Under the pieces are notes generated by a model. The model saw nothing but the letters and a program-made list of their open reading frames with translations. It did no database searches and had not been told where the DNA came from. Positions 1-59,204 of a stretch of DNA of 64,000 nucleotides are shown here, in pieces. A program made the translations under genes and the position numbers. This DNA comes from a virus. The number at the start of each line of letters is the position of its first letter. Position 1 is the first letter of the stretch. Where the stretch lies: IMG/VR virus record IMGVR_UViG_3300021141_000706, one strand, 5' to 3'.

Positions 1-622
1 AGCTAAAAGAAAAGCCATTGAAGAAGCATCTGAATTAGGTACTTATAAAATGACCTTAAAAGGTCGTGGTGATATTAAATTCACTGGTGATTTCTATGTT
101 TATTTTTACTGGAATAATGATAATTTTGATGAAAGCTATGGAGATTGGAAATCATTTGATAGCAGTTCTCTTTGGTTACAATTTGACTTTTCTGTTTTAC
201 CAGCATCTGAAGAATCTAAAGAATTTACTCAAAATGTTCTTAATAAAGAAATAGGTCTTAATTATGACGGTAAATGTTATTTAGGTTCATTTGGTCTTAA
301 TCTAACACAAGGTGGTGCCTCTTATGATGAAAATGATAAACCAACATATGTTCTAAAACCTAATGGTGGATTCTATTTTGAGGAGTATGATAGTATAGCA
401 TGGTATATGGCTGATAGAGGATCTGCTCAGAAATTTAAGAAGATGCTTTATGATGTATTTGAGGGTAATATTGTTTGGAGAGAAACTCCACAATTACCTG
501 GTGGTGTGAAAGAACAAATCTTAGACTTCCTTTGTTCAGATATGGATCATACCTTAGAAGAGTTTGAAGAATTTATAGAATCTCTAAAACGAATAAGTGT
601 AAATAAACTTTATAAAGACTAG
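1..622 (+). CDS. Hypothetical phage protein, 5'-truncated by the window
   Basis: The frame of the 50..622 ORF is open back to position 2 (AKRKAIEEASELGTYKM...). No family recognised. Confidence 0.7.
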   Translation, partial: AKRKAIEEASELGTYKMTLKGRGDIKFTGDFYVYFYWNNDNFDESYGDWKSFDSSSLWLQFDFSVLPASEESKEFTQNVLNKEIGLNYDGKCYLGSFGLNLTQGGASYDENDKPTYVLKPNGGFYFEEYDSIAWYMADRGSAQKFKKMLYDVFEGNIVWRETPQLPGGVKEQILDFLCSDMDHTLEEFEEFIESLKRISVNKLYKD

Positions 623-990
623 TGAAATATCTAAAAAGATTTAATGAATCCTCTGACTTTACTCCAGAAGAAATAATGAAAGAATTAACTCTTGGATTAT
701 TAGATGCTGGTTTACAAGTTAATGTTTATTCTGGTGAATATAAAAAATCAAATCACCCAAGATTTGAAGGTGAGTTACATGTTGAGATAACTGATAATAA
801 TAAAGTATTTTGTAAAAACTATCCTGAAGATGATATGGATTGGTTATATGGTAAACCTGTTATTATGGATTTCTTTGATGAGCTAACAGACTTTGGTTTA
901 ATAAGAGATAAAGATTACAAAGTATATGGTGGTGGATTAAATGTTAATTTAGTCTTCCAAAAAGAAGGACTTAATAAAGTTAAACTATAA
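622..990 (+). CDS. Hypothetical protein with capsid-targeting-like leader (MKYLKRFNES)
   Basis: GTG start overlaps the upstream TAG. N-terminal leader motif. Shares an E-I-x-E-x-x-L-x-x-x-D-x-G block with ORFs 16504, 17335 (C-half) and 23784. Confidence 0.75.
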   Translation: MKYLKRFNESSDFTPEEIMKELTLGLLDAGLQVNVYSGEYKKSNHPRFEGELHVEITDNNKVFCKNYPEDDMDWLYGKPVIMDFFDELTDFGLIRDKDYKVYGGGLNVNLVFQKEGLNKVKL

Positions 991-1014
991 CCTGAAACTC
1001 TTTCAGGTTTTTTT
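989..1014 (+). terminator. Intrinsic terminator
   Basis: aacctgaaa-ctc-tttcaggtt hairpin followed by a T-run. Confidence 0.65.
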
Positions 1015-1016
1015 AT

Positions 1017-1035
1017 TATATTTGTAGAATATATA
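1017..1035 (+). promoter_or_regulatory. Adjacent host-type -7 element (TATATTTG) and AATATATA late-type element upstream of cca
   Basis: TATATTTG at 1017-1024 and AATATATA at 1028-1035, just before the ATG at 1041. No clear -33 TTTG seen. Confidence 0.5.
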
Positions 1036-1040
1036 CACAT

Positions 1041-2210
1041 ATGAAATTAAAAAGATATAATCAATTTTTAGAATCTAAATCTGATATGTGGGATATCATT
1101 CCACAATCAGTGAAAGAGTTACACGAACTATTTCAATCAGCAGGTAAGAAACTTTACTTAGTTGGTGGTTCAGTGCGTGACTTCTTAACTGGTGATAAAC
1201 CAAAAGATTTTGACTTAGCAACCGATGCTCTTCCAGATGAAGTTTTGGAAATTGTCGGAGATAAATTTAGAACTAACCTTCAAGGTAAAGCCTTCGGAGT
1301 TGTTGTAGTTTACACTAAAGAAGTTCCAGAAGGAATGGAAATTGCTACATTCAGAGAAGATGTTTCAAAAGGTCGTAACCCAGAAGTTAAATTGGGTGTT
1401 ACTATTGAAGATGATGTTAAGCGTAGAGACTTAACTTACAACTCTCTTTTCTATGATTTAGATACAAGACAAATCGTTGACTTAGTTGGTGGTAAAGAAG
1501 ATTTACAATCTGGTATTACGAGAATGGTTGGTGATCCTATTGAAAGATTTGATGAAGATTCATTAAGAATTTTAAGAGCATTTAGATTTGCTTCAAGATA
1601 TGAACATCCTTTACATAAAGATACTGAAAGTGCTATTGAGAAAAGAAAACAACTTCAAAACATTGATCCAGAGACTGGTGAAATGAAAAGAATTTCTCAA
1701 GAAAGAGTTTGGGAAGAAATGAAGAAAGCTTGGAAACAAGCCAAAGATTACAGATACTACTTATCATTCTTTACTAAGTTTGATATGTGGGATGAAGTAT
1801 TTCCTGTTGCTAACATCAATACTAATTTAGTTGATTCAAAAGACTTTATAGTTGTTGTTGCTAACTTATTTAAGAACGAATCCACTTTAGGTTTGACTGA
1901 TAGACTAGCTCAAGAATATAAGATTGAATTAGAAACAGCTACTAAAGTAACTTTCTTACTTTCGTTATTAAATTTCAAAGTAGAAGATGTATTTGATATT
2001 TACAAGAAAAGACAACAATGTGCTATCACTGATGCTACTATTTTAGAGTGGTTAAAAGTCGAAGGTATTGATACTGATACTTTAGTTAAGTTTGTTGAAT
2101 ACAAACCAAGTGTATCTGCTCAAGAACTTATGTCTCAAGGATTCAAGGGTAAAGATCTTGGTGATGAAATCAAAAGATTAGAGATAGAAAAATTTAAACA
2201 AATGCTATGA
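1041..2210 (+). CDS. cca: CCA-adding tRNA nucleotidyltransferase (class II)
   Basis: Motifs LVGGSVRD..PKDFDLAT, EIATFR, DVKRRDLTYN, RFDEDSLRILRAFRF, RISQERVWEE, and C-terminal GFKGKDLG. Preceded by an MKLKRYNQFLES leader. Confidence 0.9.
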   Translation: MKLKRYNQFLESKSDMWDIIPQSVKELHELFQSAGKKLYLVGGSVRDFLTGDKPKDFDLATDALPDEVLEIVGDKFRTNLQGKAFGVVVVYTKEVPEGMEIATFREDVSKGRNPEVKLGVTIEDDVKRRDLTYNSLFYDLDTRQIVDLVGGKEDLQSGITRMVGDPIERFDEDSLRILRAFRFASRYEHPLHKDTESAIEKRKQLQNIDPETGEMKRISQERVWEEMKKAWKQAKDYRYYLSFFTKFDMWDEVFPVANINTNLVDSKDFIVVVANLFKNESTLGLTDRLAQEYKIELETATKVTFLLSLLNFKVEDVFDIYKKRQQCAITDATILEWLKVEGIDTDTLVKFVEYKPSVSAQELMSQGFKGKDLGDEIKRLEIEKFKQML

Positions 2211-8543: not shown

Positions 8544-8551
8544 CAAATATT

Positions 8552-8625: not shown

Positions 8626-8638
8626 CAAATCAAATAAA

Positions 8639-8896: not shown

Positions 8897-8903
8897 TAAA
8901 GTA

Positions 8904-14475: not shown

Positions 14476-14706
14476 ATGAAGTATAAACCCGGAGATGTCG
14501 TAATAAAAACCACTGGTGGAAATAAAATGACTGTCTTTGATAAAGTTAATGATAGTTATAAATGTCTTTGGTTTGTTGAAAGTTCAATGAATGAATCTGA
14601 GTTCAAAGAAGAAGAGATAGTCTCTCTAAATGAATATAAACGATTTCTAAAGACAGAAGAAAGAGAAGATAAGATTAACCAACTTCTTAATTCTTTTACC
14701 AATTAA
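14476..14706 (+). CDS. YodC/DUF2158-like small protein with C-terminal tag (EREDKINQLL)
   Basis: KPGDVV.KTTGGNKMTV...CLWF....F.EEE. Confidence 0.65.
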   Translation: MKYKPGDVVIKTTGGNKMTVFDKVNDSYKCLWFVESSMNESEFKEEEIVSLNEYKRFLKTEEREDKINQLLNSFTN

Positions 14707-15457
14707 TATTTACTACTTCTGGATTTGAATAAAGTGATTTAGAATAATAGTTATCAAATATATTTCTATACTTTTGTTGCCAAATCTCTACATCTGGAAT
14801 ATTCATTTCAGTCATTTTTCTACCTAAACCAGTTGACATATAAGCTTGTAACTCATCTGGTAAAACGTGGTCAGCATAACCATATTCAGTAATACACTTA
14901 TACATCATATCTTTTACCGTAGGATCACACTCATCATTCATTTTAGACATTTCTGCCTTATATTCAGGTAAAGTAAACCACATAGCGTGAGCAAATTCGT
15001 GTTCAAGTAAGCTATTTGATAACTCATCAACACCTAAAAGATAGTAGTTATGATCACCTTCTATTTCTTTAATTGTATTAATAGTTGATAACATTAATTT
15101 ATCCCAGTTGTTTATTTCATCTTCTGGTATATTAAACATACACTCTTCTAATATATTTGAAGGAATGTTAAATCCAGACCAATCAGAACCATATGTAAAC
15201 TGTTGTTTACCATAGTGTTGTTTGTAGATATTTACAAAGTCTGTTACCTTAAATTGTTTACCAATAATTTCTTCAAATGAAGATTCATAAAACTCTTGAG
15301 GTCTCATAAACATTAATGCTCTAGTGTGAGAGTCTGGAGCCTTTATTGCCCAAATATGATCACCACAATGATACAATTCAATTTGAGCTGAAAAAAGATC
15401 TATCTCAGGTCTCATATTTAATTCTTCTAAGAACAGTTTATACTTTTTAATAATCAT
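14696..15457 (-). CDS. HExxH zinc-metallopeptidase-like protein with capsid-targeting-like leader
   Basis: LLEHEFAHA, downstream DELQAY, leader MIIKKYKLFLEE. Confidence 0.65.
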   Translation of the reverse strand: MIIKKYKLFLEELNMRPEIDLFSAQIELYHCGDHIWAIKAPDSHTRALMFMRPQEFYESSFEEIIGKQFKVTDFVNIYKQHYGKQQFTYGSDWSGFNIPSNILEECMFNIPEDEINNWDKLMLSTINTIKEIEGDHNYYLLGVDELSNSLLEHEFAHAMWFTLPEYKAEMSKMNDECDPTVKDMMYKCITEYGYADHVLPDELQAYMSTGLGRKMTEMNIPDVEIWQQKYRNIFDNYYSKSLYSNPEVVNINW

Positions 15458-15461: not shown

Positions 15462-16499
15462 TTATTTAATTTTTAACGAGTAAAGTTTTAGTATATTTCT
15501 TTGTATTCTATTACCAGCTCTATTGATTCTCTTTTGAATGAATGCTAAAAACTTATCAACTGACATAGCTTTAACAGATTCACCCGATAAAGTAGGTTTG
15601 TCTTCTTCTCTACTAATAGAGCCCTCTCTATTTTTTATTAACTCATTAGCAAATCCATTTTTAACTCTTCTCAACATCATTTCAACATCAGCATCTGGAT
15701 AAACACTTAGTATCTTATCAGTCATTTTTTGTTTGAACTGATTAGCATCAAACTCTATCATCTTTGTAGCAAACTTCCAAGATGGTGCTTTTTCTTTTAC
15801 TTCTTCTATATCATATCTTTTAACATAAGGATAAGCATCTTGAGTCATTGCGTTAATTTCATGAAGTTCACTCCAGTAAACATAAAACCCAATCTCATCA
15901 TACCAAATCTTCCAAATATCTTTTCTAATCTTAGCTCTATTAGCATCTAAAGCCCAAGTAACATCAGTTGATACTTGACCTTTACCTTTTCTCATTCTAT
16001 TCCAACCCTCATAACCGTGATTTAATTCGTGTGTTATAGAAGATTCAATCTCAAGAGATAATCCTTCTCTATCATTAAGAACATCGCTTACAATAGCACC
16101 AATCTCAAGTACTAAATGAAGAGTAGCATCTGATCTATCATCAATTGCTGGTTTGATTGCTGAACCACCTTCTTCACCAATATTATAACAAGCACCAGTA
16201 CCAATATATTTCTTTTTTGATGTTGGAAATCTTTTAATAAAATCTTCATCAGTCATTGTTTTAAGTGTGTAATTAACAGACATTGATGAGATAGGATATT
16301 TGGACCAAATATCATTTTGAATAAATTGAGTTAAATCTTCTTGACTATATTCTTGAATGTGTGAATAATCTTTTTCACCGGATTCTAAAGCGATATCACA
16401 ATACTTATTGAACTCATCTAATAAGAACTGATTGTAGATAAGAGTAGCTTCTGCTACACCGTGTGCTTCAAATAATTGATATGATTTTAAGTGTTTCAT
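15462..16499 (-). CDS. HExxH zinc-metallopeptidase-like protein with capsid-targeting-like leader
   Basis: ITHELNHGY, downstream HEINA, leader MKHLKSYQLFEA, AATATATA at 16505-16512. Confidence 0.65.
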   Translation of the reverse strand: MKHLKSYQLFEAHGVAEATLIYNQFLLDEFNKYCDIALESGEKDYSHIQEYSQEDLTQFIQNDIWSKYPISSMSVNYTLKTMTDEDFIKRFPTSKKKYIGTGACYNIGEEGGSAIKPAIDDRSDATLHLVLEIGAIVSDVLNDREGLSLEIESSITHELNHGYEGWNRMRKGKGQVSTDVTWALDANRAKIRKDIWKIWYDEIGFYVYWSELHEINAMTQDAYPYVKRYDIEEVKEKAPSWKFATKMIEFDANQFKQKMTDKILSVYPDADVEMMLRRVKNGFANELIKNREGSISREEDKPTLSGESVKAMSVDKFLAFIQKRINRAGNRIQRNILKLYSLKIK

Positions 16500-16503: not shown

Positions 16504-16977
16504 TTATATATTAAAATAGACTAAGAACTTAACAGGTTTGTATTGTCCGTGACTAGCATTCAAATCCATTTTAACATCATATCCGGATTCTATTAGTCTT
16601 GAATTAGCGGTTAACATATCATCAAATAATCTAATACCTTCATTACCAATTACAGTAGAACCAAATTCATTTGATTCACCAGGTAGTTTAATATCAACGA
16701 TGATACAAACTTTATCTAACTTCTTTGACTTAGTTCCTAATTCAGAAGTTGATATAATTACTGGTAATTGATAATCTAAAAATCTATTTACATCACCTCT
16801 TTTTGGATCGAAACTAATATATCCACCTCTTTCAAATCCAGGAGATACCATAGAGTATGATATAATACCCATATCTTCAAAATCTAAAAATACTTCTCTC
16901 ACTTCAAGAAACTTACTTGAAATAATTTCTTTAGAATTACTTGTATTTTCATTAAAAGTAGACCAACGTTTAATCAT
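16504..16977 (-). CDS. Hypothetical protein with capsid-targeting-like leader (MIKRWSTFNEN)
   Basis: Start moved to the ATG at 16977, just downstream of the minus-strand AATATATA (16982-16989). Confidence 0.7.
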   Translation of the reverse strand: MIKRWSTFNENTSNSKEIISSKFLEVREVFLDFEDMGIISYSMVSPGFERGGYISFDPKRGDVNRFLDYQLPVIISTSELGTKSKKLDKVCIIVDIKLPGESNEFGSTVIGNEGIRLFDDMLTANSRLIESGYDVKMDLNASHGQYKPVKFLVYFNI

Positions 16978-16993: not shown

Positions 16994-17338
16994 ATGAAAC
17001 TCGATATCAATGAAGTTTACCACAATTATATAGTTAGAATAGTAATATTTGCTCTTTTTACTTTCAAAAGACAGATAAGACAACCAAATATTTATAAGAT
17101 TTCTGTTATAACTTTCACTATTAAAAGATTGCCTTGGAAAATTAATTTAGTAATTGATACTGGATTGAAATTAAATAAAGAAGATGAAAGAGAAATACTA
17201 CTTAATGAATTATTAGAGGGTATTGAAACAGATTATTTATCAACAGTTGTTGTTACATTTGTGACACCATTAAAAGAAGTTACGATGAGTATTGATTTAA
17301 GTGATGAAGAAAAGTATGAACACTATCTTTATTCTTAA
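16994..17338 (+). CDS. Hypothetical protein with an internal copy of the tag (EREILLNELL)
   Basis: 114 aa ORF divergent from 16977. Confidence 0.55.
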   Translation: MKLDINEVYHNYIVRIVIFALFTFKRQIRQPNIYKISVITFTIKRLPWKINLVIDTGLKLNKEDEREILLNELLEGIETDYLSTVVVTFVTPLKEVTMSIDLSDEEKYEHYLYS

Positions 17339-18627
17339 TATTCAAATATTACTTCAGCTCTTCTGTAGTTTAAGTCATATGAACTAAATCCAAAGATATC
17401 ACAGATTCTTTCAAATTTATCATCACAACTTTCTTCAGATGGTAATTCACCATCATAAGCATAAGAACTAAATTCTAATTTTGTTTCATAATCACCTATT
17501 CTTATACTTTCAACTCTGAATCCTAACTTTTCAACTTCTTCTCTTAACTCATCTTCATCAGGCAATTCGAATTTATCATTTTCAATATCTGTCTTACTAA
17601 ATTCAAAAAATACCCAATCAATTTTAACTTCTTTACCTTTTCCACTAGTTTCACTACGCCAAGCACCATCAGATCCTGCTCTAAAAGTAGAAAGAACCCA
17701 ACCATCTTCACCTAATCTACCAATTGTGGATTGCATGTTATCAAGCACTACCATTAAGTTATTATAACTACCATCTTTAGGTGAATAAACAATAGTAAAT
17801 TTACTAACCGTTTTATTTTTAGATACAAGAACTGGTTTGAAGTTTTGATACCTTGTATTCTTCTCAAGATAATCTGTATAAGTCATTTCACCAGTAGATG
17901 ATTTGAATGTTATCTTTTCACCTTCATCAATAAAGTCTAACATAGTATCAACTATCTTATCAACTTCATTTTCAATACCGTGTGATTCTCTTAAAAAAGA
18001 AACATACTTATCTACTTTTCTTTTCTTTAACTCACCATTATCAAATTTATAGTATTTATAATTACCATCTTTATTAAGAACAACATAGAAAGCATCTGGT
18101 TTAACATATTTCAAATAACTTTTTGTAGTTTGTAGTTGAGTTGAGTAGACATGGTCGATATAATCATCATCTGCCGTATGACCACCCGTCATTCCTCTTT
18201 TTTTGTTTTGTGACTTAGCAGTCTCAACATCAATTAAAATTAAGATAAACATTATCTTATATCCTAATTTTTGAGCGTCTTTTGTAATTTCAAAAACATT
18301 TATATCATTTGAGCCAGTTGTGTCATAGATAAAGTTTTGACCGCTTTTCATATAATGTTTTAATGAAGTAATATTTAATTCAGAAGCTCCTTTGTAATAG
18401 TCAGACTTGTCTTTAGTAAACAAATAAGAAACATCATCTGTTGAAAATGTTTTGATATTTGAATTATGAGGAACAATGAATCTATTGGCAAATGTAGACT
18501 TACCAGAACCAGGTAGACCTAAAAGAACAATGCCAAGTTTTTCTTTCATCCTATTGATTTCAGGAATAGGATCATTCTTAGAATACTCTTCATTTACAAA
18601 ACCACTGAAATTGTTAATAACTTTCAT
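17335..18627 (-). CDS. Zeta-toxin/AAA_33-like P-loop kinase fused to a second domain; capsid-targeting-like leader
   Basis: GLPGSGKST, FIYDTTG, RGMTGGH, leader MKVINNFSGFVNEE, internal KYVSFLRES. Confidence 0.75.
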   Translation of the reverse strand: MKVINNFSGFVNEEYSKNDPIPEINRMKEKLGIVLLGLPGSGKSTFANRFIVPHNSNIKTFSTDDVSYLFTKDKSDYYKGASELNITSLKHYMKSGQNFIYDTTGSNDINVFEITKDAQKLGYKIMFILILIDVETAKSQNKKRGMTGGHTADDDYIDHVYSTQLQTTKSYLKYVKPDAFYVVLNKDGNYKYYKFDNGELKKRKVDKYVSFLRESHGIENEVDKIVDTMLDFIDEGEKITFKSSTGEMTYTDYLEKNTRYQNFKPVLVSKNKTVSKFTIVYSPKDGSYNNLMVVLDNMQSTIGRLGEDGWVLSTFRAGSDGAWRSETSGKGKEVKIDWVFFEFSKTDIENDKFELPDEDELREEVEKLGFRVESIRIGDYETKLEFSSYAYDGELPSEESCDDKFERICDIFGFSSYDLNYRRAEVIFEY

Positions 18628-23783: not shown

Positions 23784-24224
23784 TTAATCTTCTACTCCGT
23801 CTTCATCATGACTAGAGTGTTGTATATGACAAACGATAGAAAACATAGAAGATTCAGCAAATGAAAACTCTGGTTCAAATCCTACTGTATATCCCATTGA
23901 GTTTAGTCTTTCTTTAATATCATCTAGTAATGAAAATAAATTAGTCATCTCTTTACTCATTGCTAGTAAATCGGTACAACCCCAAGTATTACCAGCGTCA
24001 ATCCAACCAAATGAATTTTGAGATTCTTTCTTTAAATCAAAGTGGTATTTACCATAGTTACCCAAAGTGTTTGAGCCGTTGCTATAAAACTTATCAATAT
24101 ATCCTAGGTCAAAAACTTCAATAAATATTTCCTTTATATCTTCTACACTTAGATATTCAACTTTAGATTCAAATGTTTTGAAGTCTAATATATTACGCTC
24201 CTGCTGCTGCTTCACCGCCACCAA
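23784..24224 (-). CDS. Hypothetical protein with leader-like ILDFKTFES (start uncertain)
   Basis: No ATG near the leader; the TTG/GTG starts overlap the upstream gene. Confidence 0.6.
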   Translation of the reverse strand: MVAVKQQQERNILDFKTFESKVEYLSVEDIKEIFIEVFDLGYIDKFYSNGSNTLGNYGKYHFDLKKESQNSFGWIDAGNTWGCTDLLAMSKEMTNLFSLLDDIKERLNSMGYTVGFEPEFSFAESSMFSIVCHIQHSSHDEDGVED

Positions 24225-36876: not shown

Positions 36877-37920
36877 TTATTTATATGATTTTATAATAGA
36901 AGAAATCTCAGCTTTAATTTTACCTAACTCTTCATATCCAAATTCTTTAGGGAATTTATTACCTACTTTCTTAACACCAACATAGTCAGATCTAAACATT
37001 ACCTGACCGATATGTTCATCACAACAATGAATTTCAAAGTCATCTCCTGTTTGTTTTACTTTACAATCTTTTTGAGATGTAACTAAATCTTTAACTTTCT
37101 TTCTGAAAGAATCTTTCTTATCAGCTTTTACTTCTGTGTGTTTGTCTTTAGTTCTTACTGATTTCTCAGCAACACCTTCACCTAACCAACTTGGTTTACC
37201 CATACCATCTTGCCAACCGCCTTCTGATCCAGAGTCATCATATCTTTCATCATCTCTTGGGTACATTCCATCTGGATCTTCTTTTTGAGATCTTCTTATT
37301 CTCTTTTCTCTTTTCTCAGCATCTTCTTTAGCTTTATGTGGAAAATTAGAGATTTCTGTTTTTTCTGATGGAGATAATTCCTCATCAGATTCATTAAGAG
37401 ATTCAACAATTAAATCATCTAATTCATCTAATTTATATTTACCTATTGATTTAGAAATTTTATAATCAGATATCTTTTTCAATAACCATTCTAAATCTTC
37501 TTTCTTCTTTTCATCAGTTGCTTTGGCAAAACTTTTTTCAACACTTTCAATTAATTTATTTTTAACCTCACTGAACTTAAATCCATTAGGATATTCTTTT
37601 TTGAACTTTTCAACTTTCTTTTCTAATTCTCTTCTTTCATTTGGTGTTAAATCCGAATTCTCTTTAGCTAGTTTCTTTTTAACTTCTTCAATATCTAATG
37701 CTAACTTAACAACATTATCTAAAACAGCTTTAACAACCCTCCATTTATTCTCAATTGAAATAGTTTTACCAATTACTTTTAATAAAAGTGGAACTAATGG
37801 CTTCAATAAGAAACCAACTATTTTGAATGGTAGTTTAAGTATATCACCAATTAGTCCTTCGTTAATCATTTCTTGATTATAAGACTCATTAAATTTTTCC
37901 CAGTTTTGGATATTTTTCAT
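36877..37920 (-). CDS. Putative internal virion protein (MKNIQNWEKFNES leader, several xNE sites)
   Basis: Leader, INEG followed by a hydrophobic helix, internal LNES. Confidence 0.7.
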   Translation of the reverse strand: MKNIQNWEKFNESYNQEMINEGLIGDILKLPFKIVGFLLKPLVPLLLKVIGKTISIENKWRVVKAVLDNVVKLALDIEEVKKKLAKENSDLTPNERRELEKKVEKFKKEYPNGFKFSEVKNKLIESVEKSFAKATDEKKKEDLEWLLKKISDYKISKSIGKYKLDELDDLIVESLNESDEELSPSEKTEISNFPHKAKEDAEKREKRIRRSQKEDPDGMYPRDDERYDDSGSEGGWQDGMGKPSWLGEGVAEKSVRTKDKHTEVKADKKDSFRKKVKDLVTSQKDCKVKQTGDDFEIHCCDEHIGQVMFRSDYVGVKKVGNKFPKEFGYEELGKIKAEISSIIKSYK

Positions 37921-43605: not shown

Positions 43606-43851
43606 TTATCTAATTGGTTTGTAATTAGGAATAGCACCTTTGTAATTGTTGTTACTTTTTCTGATTTCTTCGTGTTCAGCTTCTGCTGCCGCTTGATATT
43701 CAGGATCATTCTTTTCGTCTTGTTTACAAGTCATACAGATGACATCTTCGTTAAACATAGACATTGTAGTAACACCATTAGTCGGTTCACCACATCTATC
43801 ACAGATAGATTTATTCATTCCAAAAGATTCGTATGTTTTTAAGTGTTTCAT
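43606..43851 (-). CDS. Small Zn-finger protein with capsid-targeting-like leader (MKHLKTYESF)
   Basis: CDRC...MSMFNEDVICMTC. Confidence 0.75.
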   Translation of the reverse strand: MKHLKTYESFGMNKSICDRCGEPTNGVTTMSMFNEDVICMTCKQDEKNDPEYQAAAEAEHEEIRKSNNNYKGAIPNYKPIR

Positions 43852-44370: not shown

Positions 44371-44673
44371 TTAGTGATTTCTATTTAAATCGAATGTTAT
44401 TTCATACCCGTTTTTTTCAGACCATTCTCTAACAACATCTATCTTATCACCTAATTTAAATGGAAGATTAAGTTCTTCTAATTTTATTTCAGAATAAATC
44501 TTCATATCAGTGATGACATTTTTAACTTGTGTATAATAAATATGTAATTCAAACTTCTTAGACTTTCCTAAGAACCAACTTTTATGATAGCCTTCTATAG
44601 CTAAATGATTCATAAATCTTCTTATGTTTGAACCACCCATAAATTCATTAAAATTTTTTATTTTATTACTCAT
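44371..44673 (-). CDS. Hypothetical protein with leader (MSNKIKNFNEF)
   Basis: 100 aa ORF. Confidence 0.68.
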   Translation of the reverse strand: MSNKIKNFNEFMGGSNIRRFMNHLAIEGYHKSWFLGKSKKFELHIYYTQVKNVITDMKIYSEIKLEELNLPFKLGDKIDVVREWSEKNGYEITFDLNRNH

Positions 44674-44735: not shown

Positions 44736-45368
44736 ATGAATAAATTAAAGCAACTTGAAATAAAAAAATTAATGAAGGAATTAGACTTCGTTGAGTCCGA
44801 TTTTACATATAAAAACGAGATAGTACATGAAGCTGATAGTAACTTTATAAAAAGTGTTAATGATTTATTAGAACAACATCCTTTATTGAAAGACGTATTT
44901 GATAAAAAGATTAATAATAAAATAGATAATATCTTTCAAAGAAGAACTGAAGAGTTAAAAGATAAAATAGAAACTATAAATGAATCATATCAAGAGGATT
45001 CAATTGAGGAAGAAGTTATAGTTGAAAAGATTATTGATAAAAAAGTTAGAAAGTTATACAGAGAAATAGCCAAAATAACACATCCAGATAGAATTGATAA
45101 TAGAAAATTAAATGACCTTTATATTAAGGCAACTATTTATTATAACAATAATGATATTGCTGGTACTTATTCAATATGTAACGAATTAGATATAGAGTAT
45201 GAGCCAGATGATTCTGATAATCAATTAATATCTGGTAAAATAAATGGTCTTAAAAGTAGAATATCATTTATGGAATCAACATTAACTTGGGTTTGGTATC
45301 ACTCAACAGATGATAAGGAAAAAGAACAAATGATTTTAGGATATATTAAGAATCAATTAGATAATTGA
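44736..45368 (+). CDS. J-domain-like (HPD) protein
   Basis: KVRKLYREIAKITHPDR, flanked by coiled coils. Confidence 0.7.
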   Translation: MNKLKQLEIKKLMKELDFVESDFTYKNEIVHEADSNFIKSVNDLLEQHPLLKDVFDKKINNKIDNIFQRRTEELKDKIETINESYQEDSIEEEVIVEKIIDKKVRKLYREIAKITHPDRIDNRKLNDLYIKATIYYNNNDIAGTYSICNELDIEYEPDDSDNQLISGKINGLKSRISFMESTLTWVWYHSTDDKEKEQMILGYIKNQLDN

Positions 45369-45989
45369 TACTGTGACTTTTCTGTCGTTTAATAAAGATT
45401 GAAGTTCATCTTTTCTAAAGAATCTTTTGTAGACATCATTTTCTTTATCAAGATTCTGAAGCTCCCAAGTATTACCATCAGATGTAACATAGATATAGTT
45501 CCCATCACCATCAGTTACTTCAATTGTTTTAGATGATAGTTTATCATAGAACTTTTTAACATCACCATTTATCTTAAAAAACTTAACATCTTCCCATTCT
45601 TTATTAGTTTCATTCCAAACTTGAAAAGTAATGTAAAGAGGATTTTCTAACTCATTTGAGCTAATATCATAAATAAACATCCATTTACAAGGTTTGTTAA
45701 CAAATGTTTGATACTCTTCTGTGTTTTGAACTGGTGATTTCTTTAGACCTAAAGAAGATAATGAGTTAATGAATTCAATATTATCTGATAAGAAGTCTAA
45801 ACTTAATCGTCCATCATAAAAATCTTTAGGTAGTTTCAAAGTATCAAAGATATCTTTCTCTTCTGCTGAAATTGCTGATAGAAGTACATCATGCCATATA
45901 TTCATTGATTCTAATATATCAACTGACATAACCATAAGGTCAATCACCAATGACTCTTTGAACTTATTATATGATTTTATTACTCTCAT
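45357..45989 (-). CDS. Hypothetical protein with leader (MRVIKSYNKFKES)
   Basis: 210 aa, shares a palindromic promoter with 46047. Confidence 0.72.
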   Translation of the reverse strand: MRVIKSYNKFKESLVIDLMVMSVDILESMNIWHDVLLSAISAEEKDIFDTLKLPKDFYDGRLSLDFLSDNIEFINSLSSLGLKKSPVQNTEEYQTFVNKPCKWMFIYDISSNELENPLYITFQVWNETNKEWEDVKFFKINGDVKKFYDKLSSKTIEVTDGDGNYIYVTSDGNTWELQNLDKENDVYKRFFRKDELQSLLNDRKVTVSII

Positions 45990-46046: not shown

Positions 46047-47426
46047 ATGAAATGGCTAAGAGATTATAAATTATTCAAGGAAGCAAGACAAGAGAAGGTT
46101 TCTTATAAGAACCTAGTTGGAGAAATCTGTACTGCGATGGTTTTGTTAAACAACGAATTCCTTGATAATATATTAGATAGAGGTTTGAAAGCTAGATATT
46201 CTGAAAATTCAGAAATATTTATCACAGACTTAAAGAATCTTCTTCTAGCTAAGAACAGATTAAACTTAGGTAGATTTGAAGGTGATACTTGTGTTACTGA
46301 TGATGAGATATCTAAAGCTAGCCTATTATTTGATTCAATTGAATTTGACATTGAAAAAGATTGGGATAAATTAGTTGCTGCTAGAACAACTGCTAGAAAT
46401 ATTATTGATAAATTATTATTAGATTCTAAATTAAAACCTGAGATGATTAAAAACATTTTCTGGATTGGTCCTAATAAAGATTCTGATCATCAAGAGGATA
46501 TAGTTGTTGAAGATAAAGATGGTAATCAATATAGTTTTTACTTAAACAAAAACTTAGCAACTCAAAAGTCTGCTTCATTTAATTTATTTGCGGATGAGTT
46601 AATTGGTGCTGATATTGATAGATTATACAAAGAAGATTATTTATCTAAATGGGATAAACTAACTCAAGAGTGGATTAGATTAATTTATGAAAATGCTAAT
46701 AAAAATATTCAACAGTTGATTGAGAAGTTTATTGATGCTAAAAGAATTGATACTATTGGTTATTTTGAATACTTTGATATAAGACACAAAGATCCTAAGT
46801 TCAAACATTTAGGTGAATTCATACAAGAATATGATAAAAACATTCTTAAATTCTCTGACTTAATGAATGAGATTTGGAAAAGTAAAGAAAATAGCTTTAT
46901 GGATTCTGAAAGAGTTACCAAAGAGTGGATGGAAATTAAAATAGTTATTCTTAACTCTAAAATTCTTGAAAATCTTTTAACATCAAGTCTTAAATCAAAT
47001 CACACAGATGATATCCAAAAAGCTGAAGATGGTTGGAAACTTGCTGGTGGTACAGTTAAGATGAAATTATTTAAGACTTTAGTTGAGAAGATGGGTTGTT
47101 TAGAAAGACCTATTTACTTCTTAGGTAAAAATGGTGATATCTTTAATTTAGTTCCTTCAAGAGAATTCTTTAGAGAACATTATGATGACTTAAAAATCAA
47201 ATTTGATTATCATGTTAATTTTGAAGTTAGTGAAGAAGAAGAGAATAATGATTTTACAATAAAAATAAAATTAGAGTTAGACGATACTACTTTAATTGAT
47301 ATGTTTATTATTGTTAAGTTCTCTGGTGGTGAGATGTCTGGTAAGTTATCTGCTAAATATAAATTTGATATTGCCGACAACTTCAACTATTTAATTTCAA
47401 AAAAACAGTCTAATCAGTCAGAATAA
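46047..47426 (+). CDS. Hypothetical protein with leader (MKWLRDYKLFKEA)
   Basis: 459 aa. WIGP...EDIVV faintly recalls a degenerate PD-(D/E)XK fold. Confidence 0.72.
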   Translation: MKWLRDYKLFKEARQEKVSYKNLVGEICTAMVLLNNEFLDNILDRGLKARYSENSEIFITDLKNLLLAKNRLNLGRFEGDTCVTDDEISKASLLFDSIEFDIEKDWDKLVAARTTARNIIDKLLLDSKLKPEMIKNIFWIGPNKDSDHQEDIVVEDKDGNQYSFYLNKNLATQKSASFNLFADELIGADIDRLYKEDYLSKWDKLTQEWIRLIYENANKNIQQLIEKFIDAKRIDTIGYFEYFDIRHKDPKFKHLGEFIQEYDKNILKFSDLMNEIWKSKENSFMDSERVTKEWMEIKIVILNSKILENLLTSSLKSNHTDDIQKAEDGWKLAGGTVKMKLFKTLVEKMGCLERPIYFLGKNGDIFNLVPSREFFREHYDDLKIKFDYHVNFEVSEEEENNDFTIKIKLELDDTTLIDMFIIVKFSGGEMSGKLSAKYKFDIADNFNYLISKKQSNQSE

Positions 47427-55333: not shown

Positions 55334-55362
55334 TAAAAAAGCCACTCTATGAGTGGCTTTTT
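55334..55362 (+). terminator. Intrinsic terminator
   Basis: aaaagccactc-tat-gagtggcttttt. Confidence 0.8.
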
Positions 55363-55435
55363 TATTTGTACTAAAGAATAAAATCCAAAGAAAGTGTCAT
55401 TTTTAATATATAAACCATAAAAAATAAAAATATTT

Positions 55436-55651: not shown

Positions 55652-55669
55652 ATTACTTAAATCATTAAT

Positions 55670-55697
55670 AAAAGTCGAACAAATGTTCGACTTTTTT
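55670..55697 (+). terminator. Intrinsic terminator
   Basis: aaaagtcgaaca-aa-tgttcgactttt. Confidence 0.75.
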
Positions 55698-55719
55698 CAT
55701 TTAGAAAAATATAAATAAA

Positions 55720-57052: not shown

Positions 57053-57115
57053 AATTGTTTTATAGGAAAAGCAGATTGTTGTTTTAATATATATAGTACA
57101 AATTGAGATTTATAT

Positions 57116-57700
57116 ATGAAAAAATTCAGTAACATATCAAACGTAAAGGTTTCAGAAGAACCTAAAGTAGAAGTTAAACAGTTAAACGAAGAAGAAATGT
57201 TTAAGGTTAAAGTTATGAACTTGATGGAACAACTTCTTTCTATTAGAACATATGGTCCAATTGATAGATATTTAAGAGCTGGTAGTATCAAAGTTGCTGG
57301 TAAAGAAATGTTCTTAGAAGCTTTAATGGATTTGTTAAAAGATAAATCTTCAAAAGAAGAAAAGAAAATATTAGAATCATTAAAATCCTCAGTATCTGAT
57401 TGGGAAACAATCGATTCTAAAATTGATGAGGTAAATCAAAAGATCGCTGAAGGTCAAGAAAAAGATAAAATGATTCCACATAGAAATAAACTTAAATCTC
57501 TTTATAATAATTACGGCCAAGACGAAGAAATGTTTATGAATATGGTTCAAGAGTCTTGTAGTAAAATTACAAATGCTGAATCAGCTTACCTAAGAGGTTT
57601 AACTGCTGAATATATGGCAAATGAAGGTAAATATCCAAAAGAAGTATTTACTAAAGTATCTGAGTTATTTAAGGAAAAGTCTAAACAATTAAGTAATTAA
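57116..57700 (+). CDS. Hypothetical late protein
   Basis: AATATATA at 57086-57093, weak leader MKKFSNI. Confidence 0.72.
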   Translation: MKKFSNISNVKVSEEPKVEVKQLNEEEMFKVKVMNLMEQLLSIRTYGPIDRYLRAGSIKVAGKEMFLEALMDLLKDKSSKEEKKILESLKSSVSDWETIDSKIDEVNQKIAEGQEKDKMIPHRNKLKSLYNNYGQDEEMFMNMVQESCSKITNAESAYLRGLTAEYMANEGKYPKEVFTKVSELFKEKSKQLSN

Positions 57701-57714
57701 TTCATAAAATCTTT

Positions 57715-58383
57715 ATGAATGATCTTAATATAGATTACATAAATGATATCCTATCTACTTCTGTTATATCACACAAAAATTTAATTGGTGAAACACTATT
57801 TGTTAATAGCAATCCTGCTAAGGTAGAATCTGTTGAAGTTAAAAAAGTTAATAATAGTATTGTTACTAGTAGAACAAGTAATGATTATAAACTAGATTCA
57901 ACTACAACTGAAATCAAGAATCTTGATACGCCTTCTTTGATGTGTTCAATATCATTATTACTTGATAATCAATTTATTAAATCATTAGAAATATTTGGTA
58001 CAGATGAATTAGAGTTCTATAAGAAAGGAATTATGAAGTTACTCAGTAAGCCAAATCCACAAGTTATAGTTGATGAGATAGGTGAATACTACGACTGGGT
58101 TATAACATCACCTAAAATTTTCAATTACTTATCAAAACATAAAAACTTTGAATCTTTAACAGATGAGAAAGTAACTTCAATAAAGTTAAGAGGTAAGATA
58201 AATCAACTAAGTTTATTTGTAACAGATAATGTTGATAACGATACTTTATTCAAAGGAAGTTGTAAAGATAGTTCAAGTGTTATGTTAGATAGATTAAATA
58301 TATCTAAAGAATCAAATATATATAATGTTAAGGTTGATTATTTATTTATCAATCGAGGCGTTAGAAAATTGATTTTAGAATGA
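57715..58383 (+). CDS. Hypothetical protein, possibly a degenerate gp23/gp24-like capsid-fold paralog
   Basis: LLDNQFIKSL...DWVITSPKIFNYL...RGKI..LSLFV...LFKG recalls the C-half of T4-like capsid proteins (weak). Confidence 0.5.
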   Translation: MNDLNIDYINDILSTSVISHKNLIGETLFVNSNPAKVESVEVKKVNNSIVTSRTSNDYKLDSTTTEIKNLDTPSLMCSISLLLDNQFIKSLEIFGTDELEFYKKGIMKLLSKPNPQVIVDEIGEYYDWVITSPKIFNYLSKHKNFESLTDEKVTSIKLRGKINQLSLFVTDNVDNDTLFKGSCKDSSSVMLDRLNISKESNIYNVKVDYLFINRGVRKLILE

Positions 58384-58616
58384 GTGAACTAACAGATAAT
58401 CAACTTGATAAACTTTATGAAATGTCTGAGATACATTTCAAATGGTTTCAAATATACTGTCCTGATACTAAATACGAAGAAGTGTTACAACTTAATCATA
58501 TTAAGATGATGAGTATAATGAGCGGGTGTTCAGATTGCTCAGAAGATATGTTAGACTTTATCTTTGATGCTATCATTAGAGATTACAAAGAAATGTTAAA
58601 AGATTATAGTAAATAA
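58380..58616 (+). CDS. Small hypothetical protein
   Basis: ATGA overlap, CSDC. Confidence 0.62.
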   Translation: MSELTDNQLDKLYEMSEIHFKWFQIYCPDTKYEEVLQLNHIKMMSIMSGCSDCSEDMLDFIFDAIIRDYKEMLKDYSK

Positions 58617-58673
58617 TTAAAAAAAACAATTTTTAAAATAAATATATACATTATTAAAAAAATAATTAAAACT

Positions 58674-59204
58674 ATGAAATACGTTAAAACCTTTGAAAAC
58701 TTTTCTCAGGAAATGAGCTCTGAGATGGCACAAAGAGAACAAGAATTAGATATTAATTCACCCGAATATAAAGAGATGTTATTAAAAATAGCAGATGAAA
58801 AGGGAATTGATAATGCTGAGGTTCTTAAAATTCATGATGAAATAAAAGATTTACCAGTTGAGACAAACGAAGAGGTTGGTCCTATCGCTCTTCTTCTTGT
58901 TATTCCTATGTGTGTGACTTTATTTCTTACTAGTATGGGATTAAATGCTCTTACCGCACGCAAAGGTCTTAAAACATATATAACCGATTTAGCTAAGGGT
59001 AAAGTTACTGAATTAATCAAGAAAGATCCGAATCTTGCTGACAATTATGAGAATTTAGTAAGTAAAGCATATGACGAAATGATGAATGACAAAGAATTCA
59101 TAGCGAAAGTAAAAAAAGAGCAAGGTGATGGTTTATTCGTCCGTGGTCAAGAAAAATGGAAGGGATCGGGTGGTGTTACATTCGGTACAGCTGGTCGTTT
59201 TTAA
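58674..59204 (+). CDS. Putative internal virion/membrane protein (MKYVKTFENF leader)
   Basis: Leader, TNEE followed by a TM helix, AATATATA at 58641-58648. Confidence 0.72.
   Translation: MKYVKTFENFSQEMSSEMAQREQELDINSPEYKEMLLKIADEKGIDNAEVLKIHDEIKDLPVETNEEVGPIALLLVIPMCVTLFLTSMGLNALTARKGLKTYITDLAKGKVTELIKKDPNLADNYENLVSKAYDEMMNDKEFIAKVKKEQGDGLFVRGQEKWKGSGGVTFGTAGRF

What the first reader, a model, noticed from the sequence alone, without database searches (positions are those of the whole stretch)
622..59204. About 14 proteins share a T4-like capsid-targeting leader: a predicted packaged and injected enzyme payload
Seen: N-termini MKYLKRFNE|S (622), MKLKRYNQFLE|S (cca, 1041), MIIKKYKLFLE|E (15457), MKHLKSYQLFE|A (16499), MIKRWSTFNE|N (16977), MKVINNFSGFVNE|E (18627), ILDFKTFE|S (~24190), MKYVKTFE|S (25317), MKNIQNWEKFNE|S (37920), MKHLKTYE|S (43851), MSNKIKNFNE|F (44673), MRVIKSYNKFKE|S (45989), MKWLRDYKLFKE|A (46047) and MKYVKTFE|N (58674). 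The bodies are mostly unrelated, and most of these genes sit just behind the AATATATA element. Established: T4 internal proteins carry a ~10-aa capsid-targeting sequence (MKTYQEFIAE type) that the gp21 prohead protease cleaves after Glu, and they are ejected with the DNA. Inference: this phage uses the tag at scale to load a CCA enzyme, a zeta-like kinase, two HExxH peptidase-like proteins and a Zn finger into the head, for action before any phage transcription.
Basis: partly seen in the sequence, partly recalled or inferred. Interest (0 to 1): 0.88.

Follow-up and report, generated by a model that had tools for sequence, protein, structure and literature searches.

The report
T4-like capsid-loading tag, huge phage
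About one in eight proteins of this huge freshwater phage starts with the same 10-12-residue tag, which resembles the signal phage T4 uses to load proteins into its capsid; the phage therefore probably packs dozens of unrelated proteins into its head, but no experiment has shown this.

Summary
Twelve or thirteen of the 14 listed N-termini are real starts of the form M-K/R-H/Y-L/I-K-x-Y/F-x-x-F...E. The ~24190 entry has no ATG, and 16977 fits the profile only weakly.

In a 476-kb syntenic relative, 74 of 622 proteins (12%) carry the tag, against 5 of 2404 internal-Met controls. Their bodies fall into 69 unrelated BLAST clusters. Synonymous change in the tag codons equals that downstream, so selection acts on the peptide.

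A profile built only from these tags ranks T4 ipIII, ipII and ipI 4th to 6th of 2184 candidate starts in T4. The two conserved aromatics have the spacing of T4 Tyr4 and Phe7, which published work identifies as the targeting residues.

The relatives encode a T4-type portal and capsid protein, and a gp21-type protease with its His and Ser fused to a scaffold. That scaffold holds 11 tandem YSEY(L/I)AE units, nearly the T4 tag core YQEFIAE.

My reading is a T4-type capsid-targeting propeptide used at about 20 times T4's scale. Cutting after the first Glu is not supported: the Glu position varies. AATATATA is a phage promoter, not a strictly late one. Injection and pre-transcription action are untested.

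This scan found similar tags before, on other phage DNA. I found no paper describing them in huge phages.

The parts
622..990 (+). Tagged ORF of unknown function, 122 aa; (V/M)KYLKRFNES; GTG start
   Evidence: Profile score 21.4 bits when read with M. The G001 ortholog at 378309 is 90% identical and starts ATG-MKYLKRFNES. No AATATATA upstream; it is the second gene of its unit.
1041..2210 (+). CCA-adding/poly(A) polymerase-family enzyme with tag MKLKRYNQFLES; the catalytic head domain starts at residue 38
   Evidence: PF01743 at 5.5e-30 over residues 38-159. AATATATA ends 5 nt before the ATG. The tag is kept in 9 IMG/VR orthologs. A 38%-identical homolog has the variant ...KNFTEWVNES.
14696..15457 (-). 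Tagged ORF, 253 aa; MIIKKYKLFLEE; has an HEFAH motif
   Evidence: Profile score 7.2 bits. The ortholog starts MRIIKTYKLFLEK. No Pfam match.
15462..16499 (-). Tagged ORF, 345 aa; MKHLKSYQLFEA; has an HELNH motif
   Evidence: Profile score 22.2 bits. AATATATA ends 5 nt upstream. No Pfam peptidase match.
16504..16977 (-). Weak or short-form tag, 157 aa; MIKRWSTFNEN
   Evidence: Profile score only 3.0 bits. AATATATA ends 4 nt upstream. No ortholog in G001.
17335..18627 (-). P-loop kinase (AAA_33 / zeta-toxin-like), 430 aa; tag MKVINNFSGFVNEE
   Evidence: PF13671 at 4.4e-9 and PF06414 at 1e-8. Profile score 9.9 bits. AATATATA ends 6 nt upstream.
23784..24224 (-). Doubtful member: ...ERNILDFKTFES with no ATG start
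   Evidence: The tag-like peptide lies 11 codons into a TTG-started ORF. The gene is absent from G001. Profile score 6.1 bits if started at the Ile.
24193..25317 (-). Tagged ORF, 374 aa; MKYVKTFESHRTSKNLEPINEE
   Evidence: Profile score 18.9 bits. AATATATA ends 24 nt upstream. A second I-N-E site ends at residue 21.
36877..37920 (-). Two-module tagged protein, 347 aa; MKNIQNWEKFNES. The second module starts after ...SLNESDE at about residue 182
   Evidence: The G001 ortholog (176 aa) is the second module alone behind its own tag: MKYLKRFNE-ELSPAEK, against the window's ...SLNESDE-ELSPSEK. The two are 87% identical over residues 175-347.
43606..43851 (-). Tagged 81-aa CxxC protein; MKHLKTYESF
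   Evidence: Best profile score in the window, 25.2 bits. Ortholog 94% identical. The LR745206.1 ortholog has a decayed tag, MDNLETFESF.
44371..44673 (-). Tagged ORF, 100 aa; MSNKIKNFNEF
   Evidence: Profile score 11.2 bits. No ortholog in G001.
45357..45989 (-). Tagged ORF, 210 aa; MRVIKSYNKFKES
   Evidence: Profile score 16.3 bits. AATATATA ends 27 nt upstream. Orthologs in G001 and LR745206.1 keep the tag.
46047..47426 (+). Tagged ORF, 459 aa; MKWLRDYKLFKEA
   Evidence: Profile score 15.7 bits. AATATATA ends 26 nt upstream. Orthologs keep the tag.
58674..59204 (+). Tagged ORF, 176 aa; MKYVKTFENF
   Evidence: Profile score 22.8 bits. AATATATA ends 25 nt upstream. No ortholog in G001.

Best explanation
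The shared N-terminus is a T4-type capsid-targeting propeptide.

It is a short amphipathic helix (M-K/R-H/Y-L/I-K-x-Y/F-x-x-F, then a Glu). Its two aromatic residues are spaced like T4 Tyr4 and Phe7. I infer that this helix docks newly made proteins onto the scaffolding core of the assembling prohead.

That scaffold is the C-terminal part of a gp21-type protease-scaffold fusion. It is built from about 11 tandem YSEY(L/I)AE-NLDKNI units, so the tag looks like one free copy of the scaffold's own repeat.

After the shell closes, the fused protease is expected to cut scaffold and tags after hydrophobic-x-Glu sites, often hydrophobic-Asn-Glu. The mature proteins would stay in the head.

Cargo would amount to about 12% of the proteome. 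Most are small proteins of unknown function. A few are enzymes: a CCA-adding enzyme, a zeta/PNK-like kinase, NUDIX and DeoC.

Shown here: the tag and its enrichment; selection at protein level; likeness to the T4 tag; the T4-type head genes and the scaffold repeats in relatives; the promoter link.

Inferred: docking, cleavage, retention in the virion and ejection with the DNA.
For: 1. Enrichment and unrelated bodies.

2. Protein-level selection. Synonymous differences affect 20 of 78 conserved tag codons and 40 of 138 in the next 22 codons. DNA-pattern hits use many synonymous codons: 36 in G001 and 58 in LR745206.1, against 0 for the reversed-pattern control.

3. Likeness to T4. A profile built only from G001 tags ranks T4 gp61.1 (MKTFKEFIKE) first. 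It ranks ipIII, ipII and ipI 4th to 6th of 2184 ATG-started peptides in six frames of 135 kb of T4. Published mutagenesis places T4 targeting at residues 4 and 7 and processing at 8 and 10 (PMC9026906). Here, positions 7 (Y/F in 55 of 74) and 10 (F in 37 of 74) are the most conserved apart from Met1 and the basic and aliphatic residues at positions 2-5.

4. Machinery in the 72-92% identical syntenic relative: portal PF07230 at 4e-60; capsid protein PF07068 at 6e-27; protease 27% identical to T4 gp21 at E = 1e-5, with GE-x-x-HP His and VSSR Ser conserved; its profile hits only PDB 5JBL, T4 gp21, at 9e-9.

5. Scaffold link. The T4-core shape aromatic-x-x-aromatic-[LIV]-x-E occurs 82 times in the proteome. 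Twenty-one occurrences start in the first 10 residues of a protein (about 2.2 expected, p = 4e-14). Eleven are tandem repeats in the scaffold. The repeats are kept in LR745206.1, LR756501.1, LR756504.1 and 75 IMG/VR relatives. PTm1 lacks both the repeats and the tag.

6. Cleavage motif. 76% of tagged proteins have hydrophobic-x-E ending by residue 16, against 24% of others. The protease-scaffold ORF has the most hydrophobic-N-E sites in the proteome. The capsid-protein propeptide ends ...SINE-N. The protease keeps an N-terminal L-I-x-E like T4's LIE-9.

7. Natural module swap at an x-N-E joint.

8. Tagged genes share the promoter class of the terminase, portal, baseplate and tail-fibre genes: 55 of 74 lie in AATATATA-led units, against 179 of 548 others.
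Against: There is no virion proteomics, N-terminal sequencing or other experiment for any member of this clade.

The window's own genome could not be searched, so the head genes were shown only in relatives.

The Glu position is heterogeneous, and 24% of tags lack a hydrophobic-x-E site by residue 16.

Seventy-plus cargo species is far beyond any documented case for a short T4-type tag.

The tagged bodies are on average acidic (net -0.041 per residue against -0.010), unlike the basic T4 internal proteins.

Tagged genes are no more variable between the window and G001 than other genes: 9 of 13 against 58 of 77 are conserved. The hypervariability of the T-even IP loci is therefore not seen.

AATATATA also drives UvsX and NrdA homologs, so late-only expression is not shown.

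The T4 rank test rests on one or two independent T4 sequences, with E-values of 0.07-0.55 each.
Confidence: 0.6

Rival explanations
1. The tag is an address or docking helix for a partner other than the prohead. Candidates are a phage chaperone, a replication or assembly factory, or a regulator that gathers or times one class of phage proteins. Its likeness to the T4 tag would then be shared ancestry of a generic amphipathic helix.
For: The phage has a second tag, a C-terminal R-D/E-x-K-I/L-x-x-I/L-L/I helix on 57 proteins. It overlaps the N-terminal tag in only 1 protein and almost never lies behind AATATATA (1 of 57). Together the two tags mark over 20% of the proteome, which suggests a general sorting logic. 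Some tagged proteins are enzymes with obvious cytoplasmic roles: the CCA enzyme, NUDIX and DeoC. The tagged bodies are acidic.
Against: No alternative partner was identified. The tag's closest formal match in T4 is the internal-protein tags. Its core shape is the repeat unit of the prohead scaffold. Hydrophobic-x-E sites are enriched right at its end. G001 has no radical-SAM enzyme of the kind linked to another phage tag.
Confidence: 0.22
2. The shared start is an expression element. It would be a favoured 5' coding sequence or nascent peptide that helps translation on the short-leader or leaderless mRNAs made from AATATATA promoters in a host without Shine-Dalgarno pairing.
For: AATATATA often ends only 4-7 nt before the ATG, so many transcripts would be nearly leaderless. 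The first codons are A-rich (AAA, AAR).
Against: The synonymous-site change rate in the tag equals that downstream. Substitutions are conservative at the amino-acid level (K/R, L/I/V, Y/F/W) and use many codons. The tag also occurs 19-28 nt from the box and on internal operon genes with no box. About 100 AATATATA-led genes lack it.
Confidence: 0.08
3. The pattern comes from chance, low-complexity bias, or one expanded paralog family.
For: The genome is 30% G+C, and Lys, Asn, Phe, Tyr and Glu are common.
Against: 49 observed against 0.74 in shuffles that keep each N-terminus's own composition. 69 body clusters among 74 proteins. The same tag occurs in phages whose capsid proteins are only 52-70% identical.
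Confidence: 0.01

Closest known systems
Phage T4 capsid-targeting sequence (CTS) of internal proteins IPI, IPII and IPIII, removed by the gp21 prohead protease (Mullaney & Black 1996, as reviewed in PMC9026906 and PMC3012670)
   Same: A short N-terminal peptide shared by otherwise unrelated proteins. It starts MK, has two aromatic residues three apart, and is followed by a hydrophobic-x-Glu site. The phage has T4-type portal, gp21-type protease, scaffold and gp23-type capsid protein. A profile of the tag picks out the T4 IP tags.
   Different: The tag has three extra residues in front (MK-H/Y-L before K-T-Y). The position of the Glu varies. It sits on about 74 proteins per genome instead of 3-4, including enzymes of RNA and nucleotide metabolism. 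The cargo bodies are acidic rather than basic. The protease is fused to the scaffold. Nothing has been shown experimentally.
[quoted passage not shown]
   Same: The idea that a conserved tag lets a phage swap the proteins it loads into the head.
   Different: Here the tagged genes are spread over the whole genome and are not more variable than their neighbours. The scale is about 20 times larger.
Processed ejection and inner-body proteins of giant phages phiKZ, 201phi2-1 and SPN3US (PMC5694885, PMC7411985)
   Same: These giant phages have a gp21-related protease that cuts many head proteins after Glu, and tens of MDa of packaged protein.
   Different: Their propeptides are mostly over 100 residues and are not one shared short tag. 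Their cut motif is given as S/A/G-x-E (from memory, not checked here). They belong to a different phage lineage with virion RNA polymerases.
Tenacibaculum phage PTm1 'prohead core scaffolding protein and protease' (RefSeq NC_049340.1, ORF-300)
   Same: The same protease-scaffold fusion lies next to a related capsid-protein gene (29% identity) in a cultured phage of Bacteroidota.
   Different: PTm1's scaffold has other repeats (LSEGIEKWI-like). Its genome has no hit to the tag pattern.

Membership tests
T4-type capsid-targeting sequence (CTS) system | A short (10-19 aa) N-terminal peptide shared by otherwise unrelated proteins | tested here: met
   74 of 622 proteins in G001 and 11-13 in the window carry it. 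Bodies fall into 69 of 74 separate BLAST clusters. Conservation fades after residue 12.
T4-type capsid-targeting sequence (CTS) system | Sequence likeness to the T4 CTS, including the two aromatic residues needed for targeting (T4 Tyr4 and Phe7) | tested here: met
   Tag profile ranks ipIII, ipII and ipI 4th to 6th of 2184. Y/F at position 7 in 55 of 74 and F at position 10 in 37 of 74, the same i / i+3 spacing. The role of the T4 residues is taken from PMC9026906.
T4-type capsid-targeting sequence (CTS) system | The tag ends in a prohead-protease site, (L/I)-x-Glu in T4 | tested here: inconclusive
   56 of 74 have hydrophobic-x-E ending by residue 16, against 134 of 548 others. However, the Glu position varies (8, 9, 11 or 12), and forms such as KTYES have Thr at P3.
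T4-type capsid-targeting sequence (CTS) system | A gp21-family (S77) prohead protease with catalytic His and Ser in the same genome | tested here: met
   Met in close relatives only. G001 59876-62038: BLASTP against T4 gp21 gives 1e-5, with His and Ser aligned to H85 and S140. Its profile hits only 5JBL at 9e-9. G002 also has it. The window's own genome could not be searched.
T4-type capsid-targeting sequence (CTS) system | A T4-type prohead: gp20 portal, gp23 capsid protein and a scaffolding core | tested here: met
   PF07230 at 4e-60 and PF07068 at 6e-27 in G001. The scaffold domain has 11 YSEY(L/I)AE repeats, and T4 gp22 has one similar unit, KEWLAENK.
T4-type capsid-targeting sequence (CTS) system | Tagged proteins are physically in the prohead or virion, with the tag removed | not testable with these tools
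   Needs virion mass spectrometry or N-terminal sequencing.
T4-type capsid-targeting sequence (CTS) system | Cargo is ejected into the host with the DNA | not testable with these tools
   Needs infection experiments.
Leader tag read by a radical-SAM/SPASM maturase (as proposed elsewhere in this scan for an RB43 tag) | A radical-SAM enzyme encoded in the same genome, near the tagged genes | tested here: not met
   PF04055 has no match in G001, while it rings in all 14 control genomes.

The most novel reading that the evidence does not exclude
The capsid-targeting tag is a free copy of the scaffold's own repeat unit (aromatic-x-x-aromatic-L/I-A-Glu). Cargo would enter the head by co-assembling as a mimic of the scaffold and be released by the same cuts that dismantle it. 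This clade of 470-735-kb phages has exploited that rule to load 70 or more different proteins. These include a tRNA/RNA-repair set (CCA enzyme, PNK-like kinase, ligase-like proteins) that would be delivered with the DNA before any phage gene is expressed. If so, the tag would work as a sequence-only predictor of virion cargo in uncultured T4-related phages.
Probability: 0.3. Interest if true: 0.85.

Novelty: new variant of a known kind. Interest (0 to 1): 0.62.

Why it matters
If the tag works as in T4, a simple sequence rule predicts the packaged and probably injected proteome of huge phages that nobody has cultured. It gives a list of 70 or more candidate first-strike proteins per genome. 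Most have unknown function; a few are RNA-repair and nucleotide enzymes.

The match between the tag and the scaffold's tandem repeat also suggests a concrete answer to an open T4 question. The reviews I read (PMC9026906, PMC3012670) say only that the CTS has affinity for the core, and I found no partner named there. The answer is testable with peptides and recombinant scaffold.

The practical side is the same as for T4: such a tag is a handle for loading chosen proteins into phage heads.

Tried and rejected
- Complex prediction of the scaffold part (residues 171-720 of the G001 protease-scaffold ORF) with the 81-aa tagged protein gave no answer (score 0.00, controls not run). I do not use it either way.
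The window's own protease, portal and capsid genes could therefore not be located. The exact window sequence is not in IMG/VR, and megablast against INPHARED phages found nothing.
- The cultured relative PTm1 was examined as a possible bridge to published virion data. It has neither the tag (0 pattern hits) nor tagged N-termini around its head module.
- The search for homologous proteins on the protease returned only near-identical sequences, too shallow for a profile. The 50%-cluster search supplied the diversity instead.
- Two apparent tagged enzymes in G001 are borderline profile hits and should not be counted as tagged. One is a primase-like protein (the PHROG primase hit, which I assign to MKHIKKHPVND, 8.7 bits, without a per-protein check). 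The other is a Glu/Gln-type tRNA synthetase (which I take to be the 541-aa MDMKYIKTRNRFLAES, 12.0 bits).
- PHROGs gave no structural annotation for most large AATATATA-led proteins.
- I considered and rejected 'AATATATA = late promoter only' and 'tagged genes are hypervariable'.


Full report
**What the window is**

The window is 30% G+C. It has no Shine-Dalgarno sequences, it has TAnnTTTG-type host promoters, and it carries three tRNA genes. No whole genome is held for it.

Its 1597-aa protein matches only the 635-642-kb uncultured megaphages LR745206.1 and LR756502.1, at 35-38% identity.

The CCA-enzyme gene led to close relatives in IMG/VR. The best is a 476,236-bp contig that CheckV rates 97% complete, handle G001. 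I fetched it whole. Window positions 613-64000 are collinear with G001 378301-441107 at 72-92% nucleotide identity. Genome-wide statements below are for G001; window statements are marked as such.

**The observation**

Thirteen of the 14 quoted N-termini are at the stated places.
- 622 uses GTG. Its ortholog uses ATG and has the same peptide.
- The ~24190 item is not a normal start. ILDFKTFES lies inside a TTG-started ORF with no ATG, in a gene that G001 lacks.

In G001, the strict core M-[KR]-x-[LIVM]-[KRNQ]-x-[FYW] heads 49 of 622 ORFs. Shuffles of each protein's own first 20 residues give 0.74, and the rate per internal position is 0.1%.

A profile of the first 12 residues finds 74 N-termini at 8 bits or more. 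It finds 5 among 2404 internal-Met segments, and 3.8 per 622 shuffled N-termini. Forty-nine of the 74 are the seeds themselves. The other 25 compare with an expectation of 1-4.

In the window, 11 genes score 9.8-25 bits. 14696-15457 scores 7.2 and 16504-16977 only 3.0.

With the first 20 residues removed, the 74 proteins form 69 BLAST clusters. Their median length is 174 aa. Only about eight have a Pfam domain: CCA enzyme, NUDIX, DeoC, zeta/AAA_33 kinase, OmpA-like and a DnaJ-type zinc finger, plus two borderline tag calls, a primase-like protein and a Glu/Gln-type tRNA synthetase.

**Is it a peptide or a nucleotide signal?**

I compared nine window-G001 ortholog pairs. Of 78 tag codons with the same amino acid, 20 differ synonymously. 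In the next 22 codons the figure is 40 of 138. There is therefore no extra constraint on the RNA.

The replacements seen are K/R, L/I/V and Y/F/W.

A degenerate DNA pattern for M-K/R-H/Y-L/I-K-x-F/Y hits 36 times in G001 and 58 times in LR745206.1. The pattern read backwards hits 0 times. The hits use many synonymous codons.

The tag also occurs on operon-internal genes that have no promoter box.

**Anatomy of the tag**

Per position among the 74:
- position 1: M
- position 2: K 49, R 15
- position 3: H 25, Y 25
- position 4: L 44, I 19
- position 5: K 51
- position 6: T, K or other
- position 7: Y 28, F 27
- position 8: E, N or K
- position 9: E, L or S
- position 10: F 37
- positions 11-12: E or S
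- after position 12: noise

The first Glu sits at position 8 (YES-F forms), 9 (FNES), 11 (YKLFE) or 12 (YKLFIE). Phe10 is conserved beyond Glu8.

**Link to T4**

I fetched 135 kb of T4. The internal proteins begin MKTYQEFIAE-A (IPII, IPIII) and MKTFKEFTST...ITE-A (IPI).

The G001-only profile was run over all 2184 stop-free ATG-started 20-mers in six frames of T4. It ranks gp61.1 (MKTFKEFIKE) first and ipIII, ipII and ipI 4th to 6th.
- Single E-values are weak, at 0.07-0.55.
- Counting the T4 tags as one or two independent sequences, the chance of these ranks is about 3e-3 to 8e-6.

Long-form tags here, such as MIKKYLQFIKEA and MKLKRYNQFLES, align residue for residue with M-KTYQEFIAEA.

A review of the T4 work reports that targeting depends mainly on residues 4 and 7 and processing on residues 8 and 10. 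It also reports that the first ten residues suffice for packaging (PMC9026906; see also PMC3012670 and PMC5694885). T4's Tyr4 and Phe7 are three residues apart, which is the spacing of the conserved Y/F7 and F10 here.

**The machinery**

G001 has these genes:
- A T4-type portal at 54435-56162 (PF07230, 4e-60).
- A gp23-type capsid protein at 62115-63809 (PF07068, 6e-27).
- Homologs of the terminase, sheath, gp4 and gp25.
- A 720-aa ORF at 59876-62038, just upstream of the capsid gene.

The N-terminal 170 residues of that ORF are a gp21-type protease.
- The Pfam S77 match is below its cut-off.
- BLASTP against T4 gp21 gives 27% identity over 150 residues at E = 1e-5. GEFDHP aligns with GELNHP (His85) and VSSRAAG aligns with VSSRGLG (Ser140).
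- The family has 3086 cluster representatives.
- A 12-sequence profile hits one PDB entry only: 5JBL, the T4 prohead protease, at 9e-9.

RefSeq annotates the PTm1 counterpart as 'prohead core scaffolding protein and protease'.

**The scaffold repeat**

The rest of the 720-aa ORF is a scaffold-like region. It contains eleven aromatic-x-x-aromatic-(L/I)-A-Glu units, mostly YSEY(L/I)AE. Ten of them form a tandem 14-residue repeat. An acidic, His-rich stretch and a C-terminal domain follow.

YSEY(L/I)AE is nearly the T4 tag core YQEFIAE. T4 gp22 has one such unit (KEWLAENK), and its N-terminus MLKEQLIAEA resembles the tag.

Across the G001 proteome, the shape aromatic-x-x-aromatic-[LIV]-x-E occurs 82 times.
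- 21 occurrences start within the first ten residues of a protein (about 2.2 expected, Poisson 4e-14).
- 11 are the scaffold repeats.

Repeat counts in relatives:

| Genome or set | Copies |
|---|---|
| LR745206.1 | 11 |
| LR756501.1 | 13 tandem copies, plus one isolated match |
| LR756504.1 | 11 |
| 75 IMG/VR relatives | 9-12 |
| 130 diverse homologs | 3 or more in 78 |

All three of these megaphages carry tag-like N-termini.

LR756500.1 has degenerate repeats, and no tag appeared in a 42-kb sample. PTm1 has different repeats and no tag-pattern hit in its whole genome.

This co-occurrence is suggestive. It is not phylogenetically independent.

**Cleavage**

Hydrophobic-x-Glu is 2.8-fold enriched at residues 6-16 of tagged proteins (8.5% against 3.0%). 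56 of 74 have such a site ending by residue 16, against 134 of 548 other proteins. The residue after the Glu is mostly Ser, Glu or Ala.

Hydrophobic-Asn-Glu stands out:
- 27 of 74 tagged proteins have it by residue 30, against 38 of 548 others.
- The protease-scaffold ORF has the most copies in the proteome, 7. One is a nearly invariant (V/L)-N-E-S at the end of the protease domain.
- The capsid-protein propeptide ends SINE-N before the conserved core.

The protease also keeps an N-terminal L-I-x-E, like T4's LIE-9.

A natural experiment points the same way. The window protein 36877-37920 is tag + 170-aa module + ...SLNESDE-ELSPSEK.... Its G001 ortholog is MKYLKRFNE-ELSPAEK.... The same cargo module thus follows either a tag or another module, joined at an x-N-E site.

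These points fit a T4-like Glu-specific protease. No cut has been shown.

**Promoter**

AATATATA lies within 60 nt upstream of 133 of 622 G001 genes. The spacing is bimodal: 4-7 nt, which implies near-leaderless mRNA, or 19-28 nt.

| Comparison | Tagged genes | Other genes | Statistic |
|---|---|---|---|
| G001, box within 60 nt | 31 of 74 | 102 of 548 | OR 3.2, p = 3e-5 |
| G001, gene in a box-led unit | 55 of 74 | 179 of 548 | |
| Window, box within 60 nt | 8 of 13 | 10 of 77 | p = 4e-4 |

The box precedes the terminase, portal, gp25 homolog and a tail-fibre protein. It also precedes a UvsX homolog and the NrdA reductase. It is therefore a phage-specific promoter class that includes the structural genes, not a proven late-only one.

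The CCA gene also has a host-type TATATTTG element just upstream.

**Points against, and limits**

- Tagged bodies are acidic on average.
- Tagged genes are not more variable than other genes.
- The number of tagged proteins is unprecedented for a short tag. One copy of each tagged protein totals only about 1.8 MDa (16,075 residues). T4 carries about 1000 internal-protein molecules, and SPN3US carries over 40 MDa of ejection proteins (PMC3012670, PMC7411985).
- A second, C-terminal tag exists on 57 proteins. It is mutually exclusive with this one and lies off the AATATATA class. It shows that this phage uses peptide addresses more widely, which keeps a non-capsid reading alive.
- G001 has no radical-SAM enzyme.
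- The complex prediction gave no answer.

**Literature and novelty**

The T4 CTS, and the idea that T4-like phages use it to vary their packaged proteins, are established (PMC9026906, PMC3012670).

I found no paper linking capsid targeting to huge phages. A broad jumbo-phage comparative paper does not mention propeptides or internal proteins.

Earlier entries of this scan report similar tags in other uncultured T4-related and Bacteroidota megaphages. The class is therefore not new to the scan.

What I believe is new here:
- the whole-genome count (12% of proteins);
- the objective T4 ranking test;
- the demonstration of the gp21-type protease-scaffold fusion in this clade;
- the finding that the tag core equals the scaffold's tandem repeat.

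**Verdict**

The feature is real. It is most likely (about 0.6) a T4-type capsid-targeting propeptide used at very large scale.

Cutting after the first Glu, strict late expression and injection remain unproven.

Noticed in passing
Relative G001 59876-62038 (locus L047); also LR745206.1 about 198500-200700 (L144), L141 17487-19910, L143 17647-19941: The prohead protease is fused to a scaffold that holds 11-13 tandem 14-residue repeats, NI-x-YSEY(L/I)AE-N/H-L-D-x. Each repeat ends in the classic T4 gp21 site (L/I)-A-E and nearly equals the T4 CTS core YQEFIAE. The repeats are conserved in 75 IMG/VR relatives (9-12 copies).
   Followed up: partly
Phage T4 record NC_000866.4 18966-19130, minus strand (locus L044): T4 gp61.1, annotated hypothetical, begins MKTFKEFIKE. 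It is the top hit of my tag profile in T4, above the known internal proteins. It may be an unrecognised CTS-bearing protein.
   Followed up: no
Window 11466-11777, 13216-13554, 14476-14706, 29147-29476, 32018-32278, 32265-32558, 32560-32847, 32840-33094 (all + strand): A second shared tag at the C-terminus: R-D/E-x-K-I/L-x-x-I/L-L/I. In G001 it ends 57 proteins (1.2 expected), overlaps the N-terminal tag in only one protein, and lies behind AATATATA in only 1 of 57 cases.
   Followed up: partly
Window, e.g. upstream of 1041, 16499, 16977 and 18627 (4-6 nt) against 25317, 45989, 46047 and 58674 (24-27 nt): The distance from AATATATA to the ATG is bimodal, 4-7 nt or 19-28 nt. The first class would give leaderless or nearly leaderless mRNAs.
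   Followed up: partly
Window 2207-2671 (+): A 2H phosphoesterase (PF22547, 1e-20) overlaps the CCA gene's stop by ATGA. It has no tag. With CCA it forms a possible tRNA 3'-end repair pair in which only the first enzyme is tagged.
   Followed up: partly
Window 3059-5872 and 5879-7462 (both minus strand): Two large proteins (937 and 527 aa) have Bacteroidota-style signal peptides (MKKLLLIFTFLISTLTAFSQ..., MRKLFTLILIGLGLNLSLNAQ...). They lie in a stretch with no nucleotide match in G001 and are likely secreted or surface proteins of host origin.
   Followed up: no
Window 8459-9059 (+): Three tRNA genes: Leu(TAA), Arg(TCT) and Met(CAT).
   Followed up: no
Relative G001 56656-58536 (minus) and 63890-64576 (+): An RNase II/R-type exoribonuclease (RNB, 1e-110) and an NFACT-R RNA-binding-domain protein (6e-17) sit inside the head-gene module, between the portal and protease genes and just after the capsid gene.
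   Followed up: no
Window 47478-52271 (+): A 1597-aa protein led by AATATATA has no Pfam match. It is conserved at 35-38% identity only in the 635-642-kb megaphages and is probably a large structural protein.
   Followed up: no
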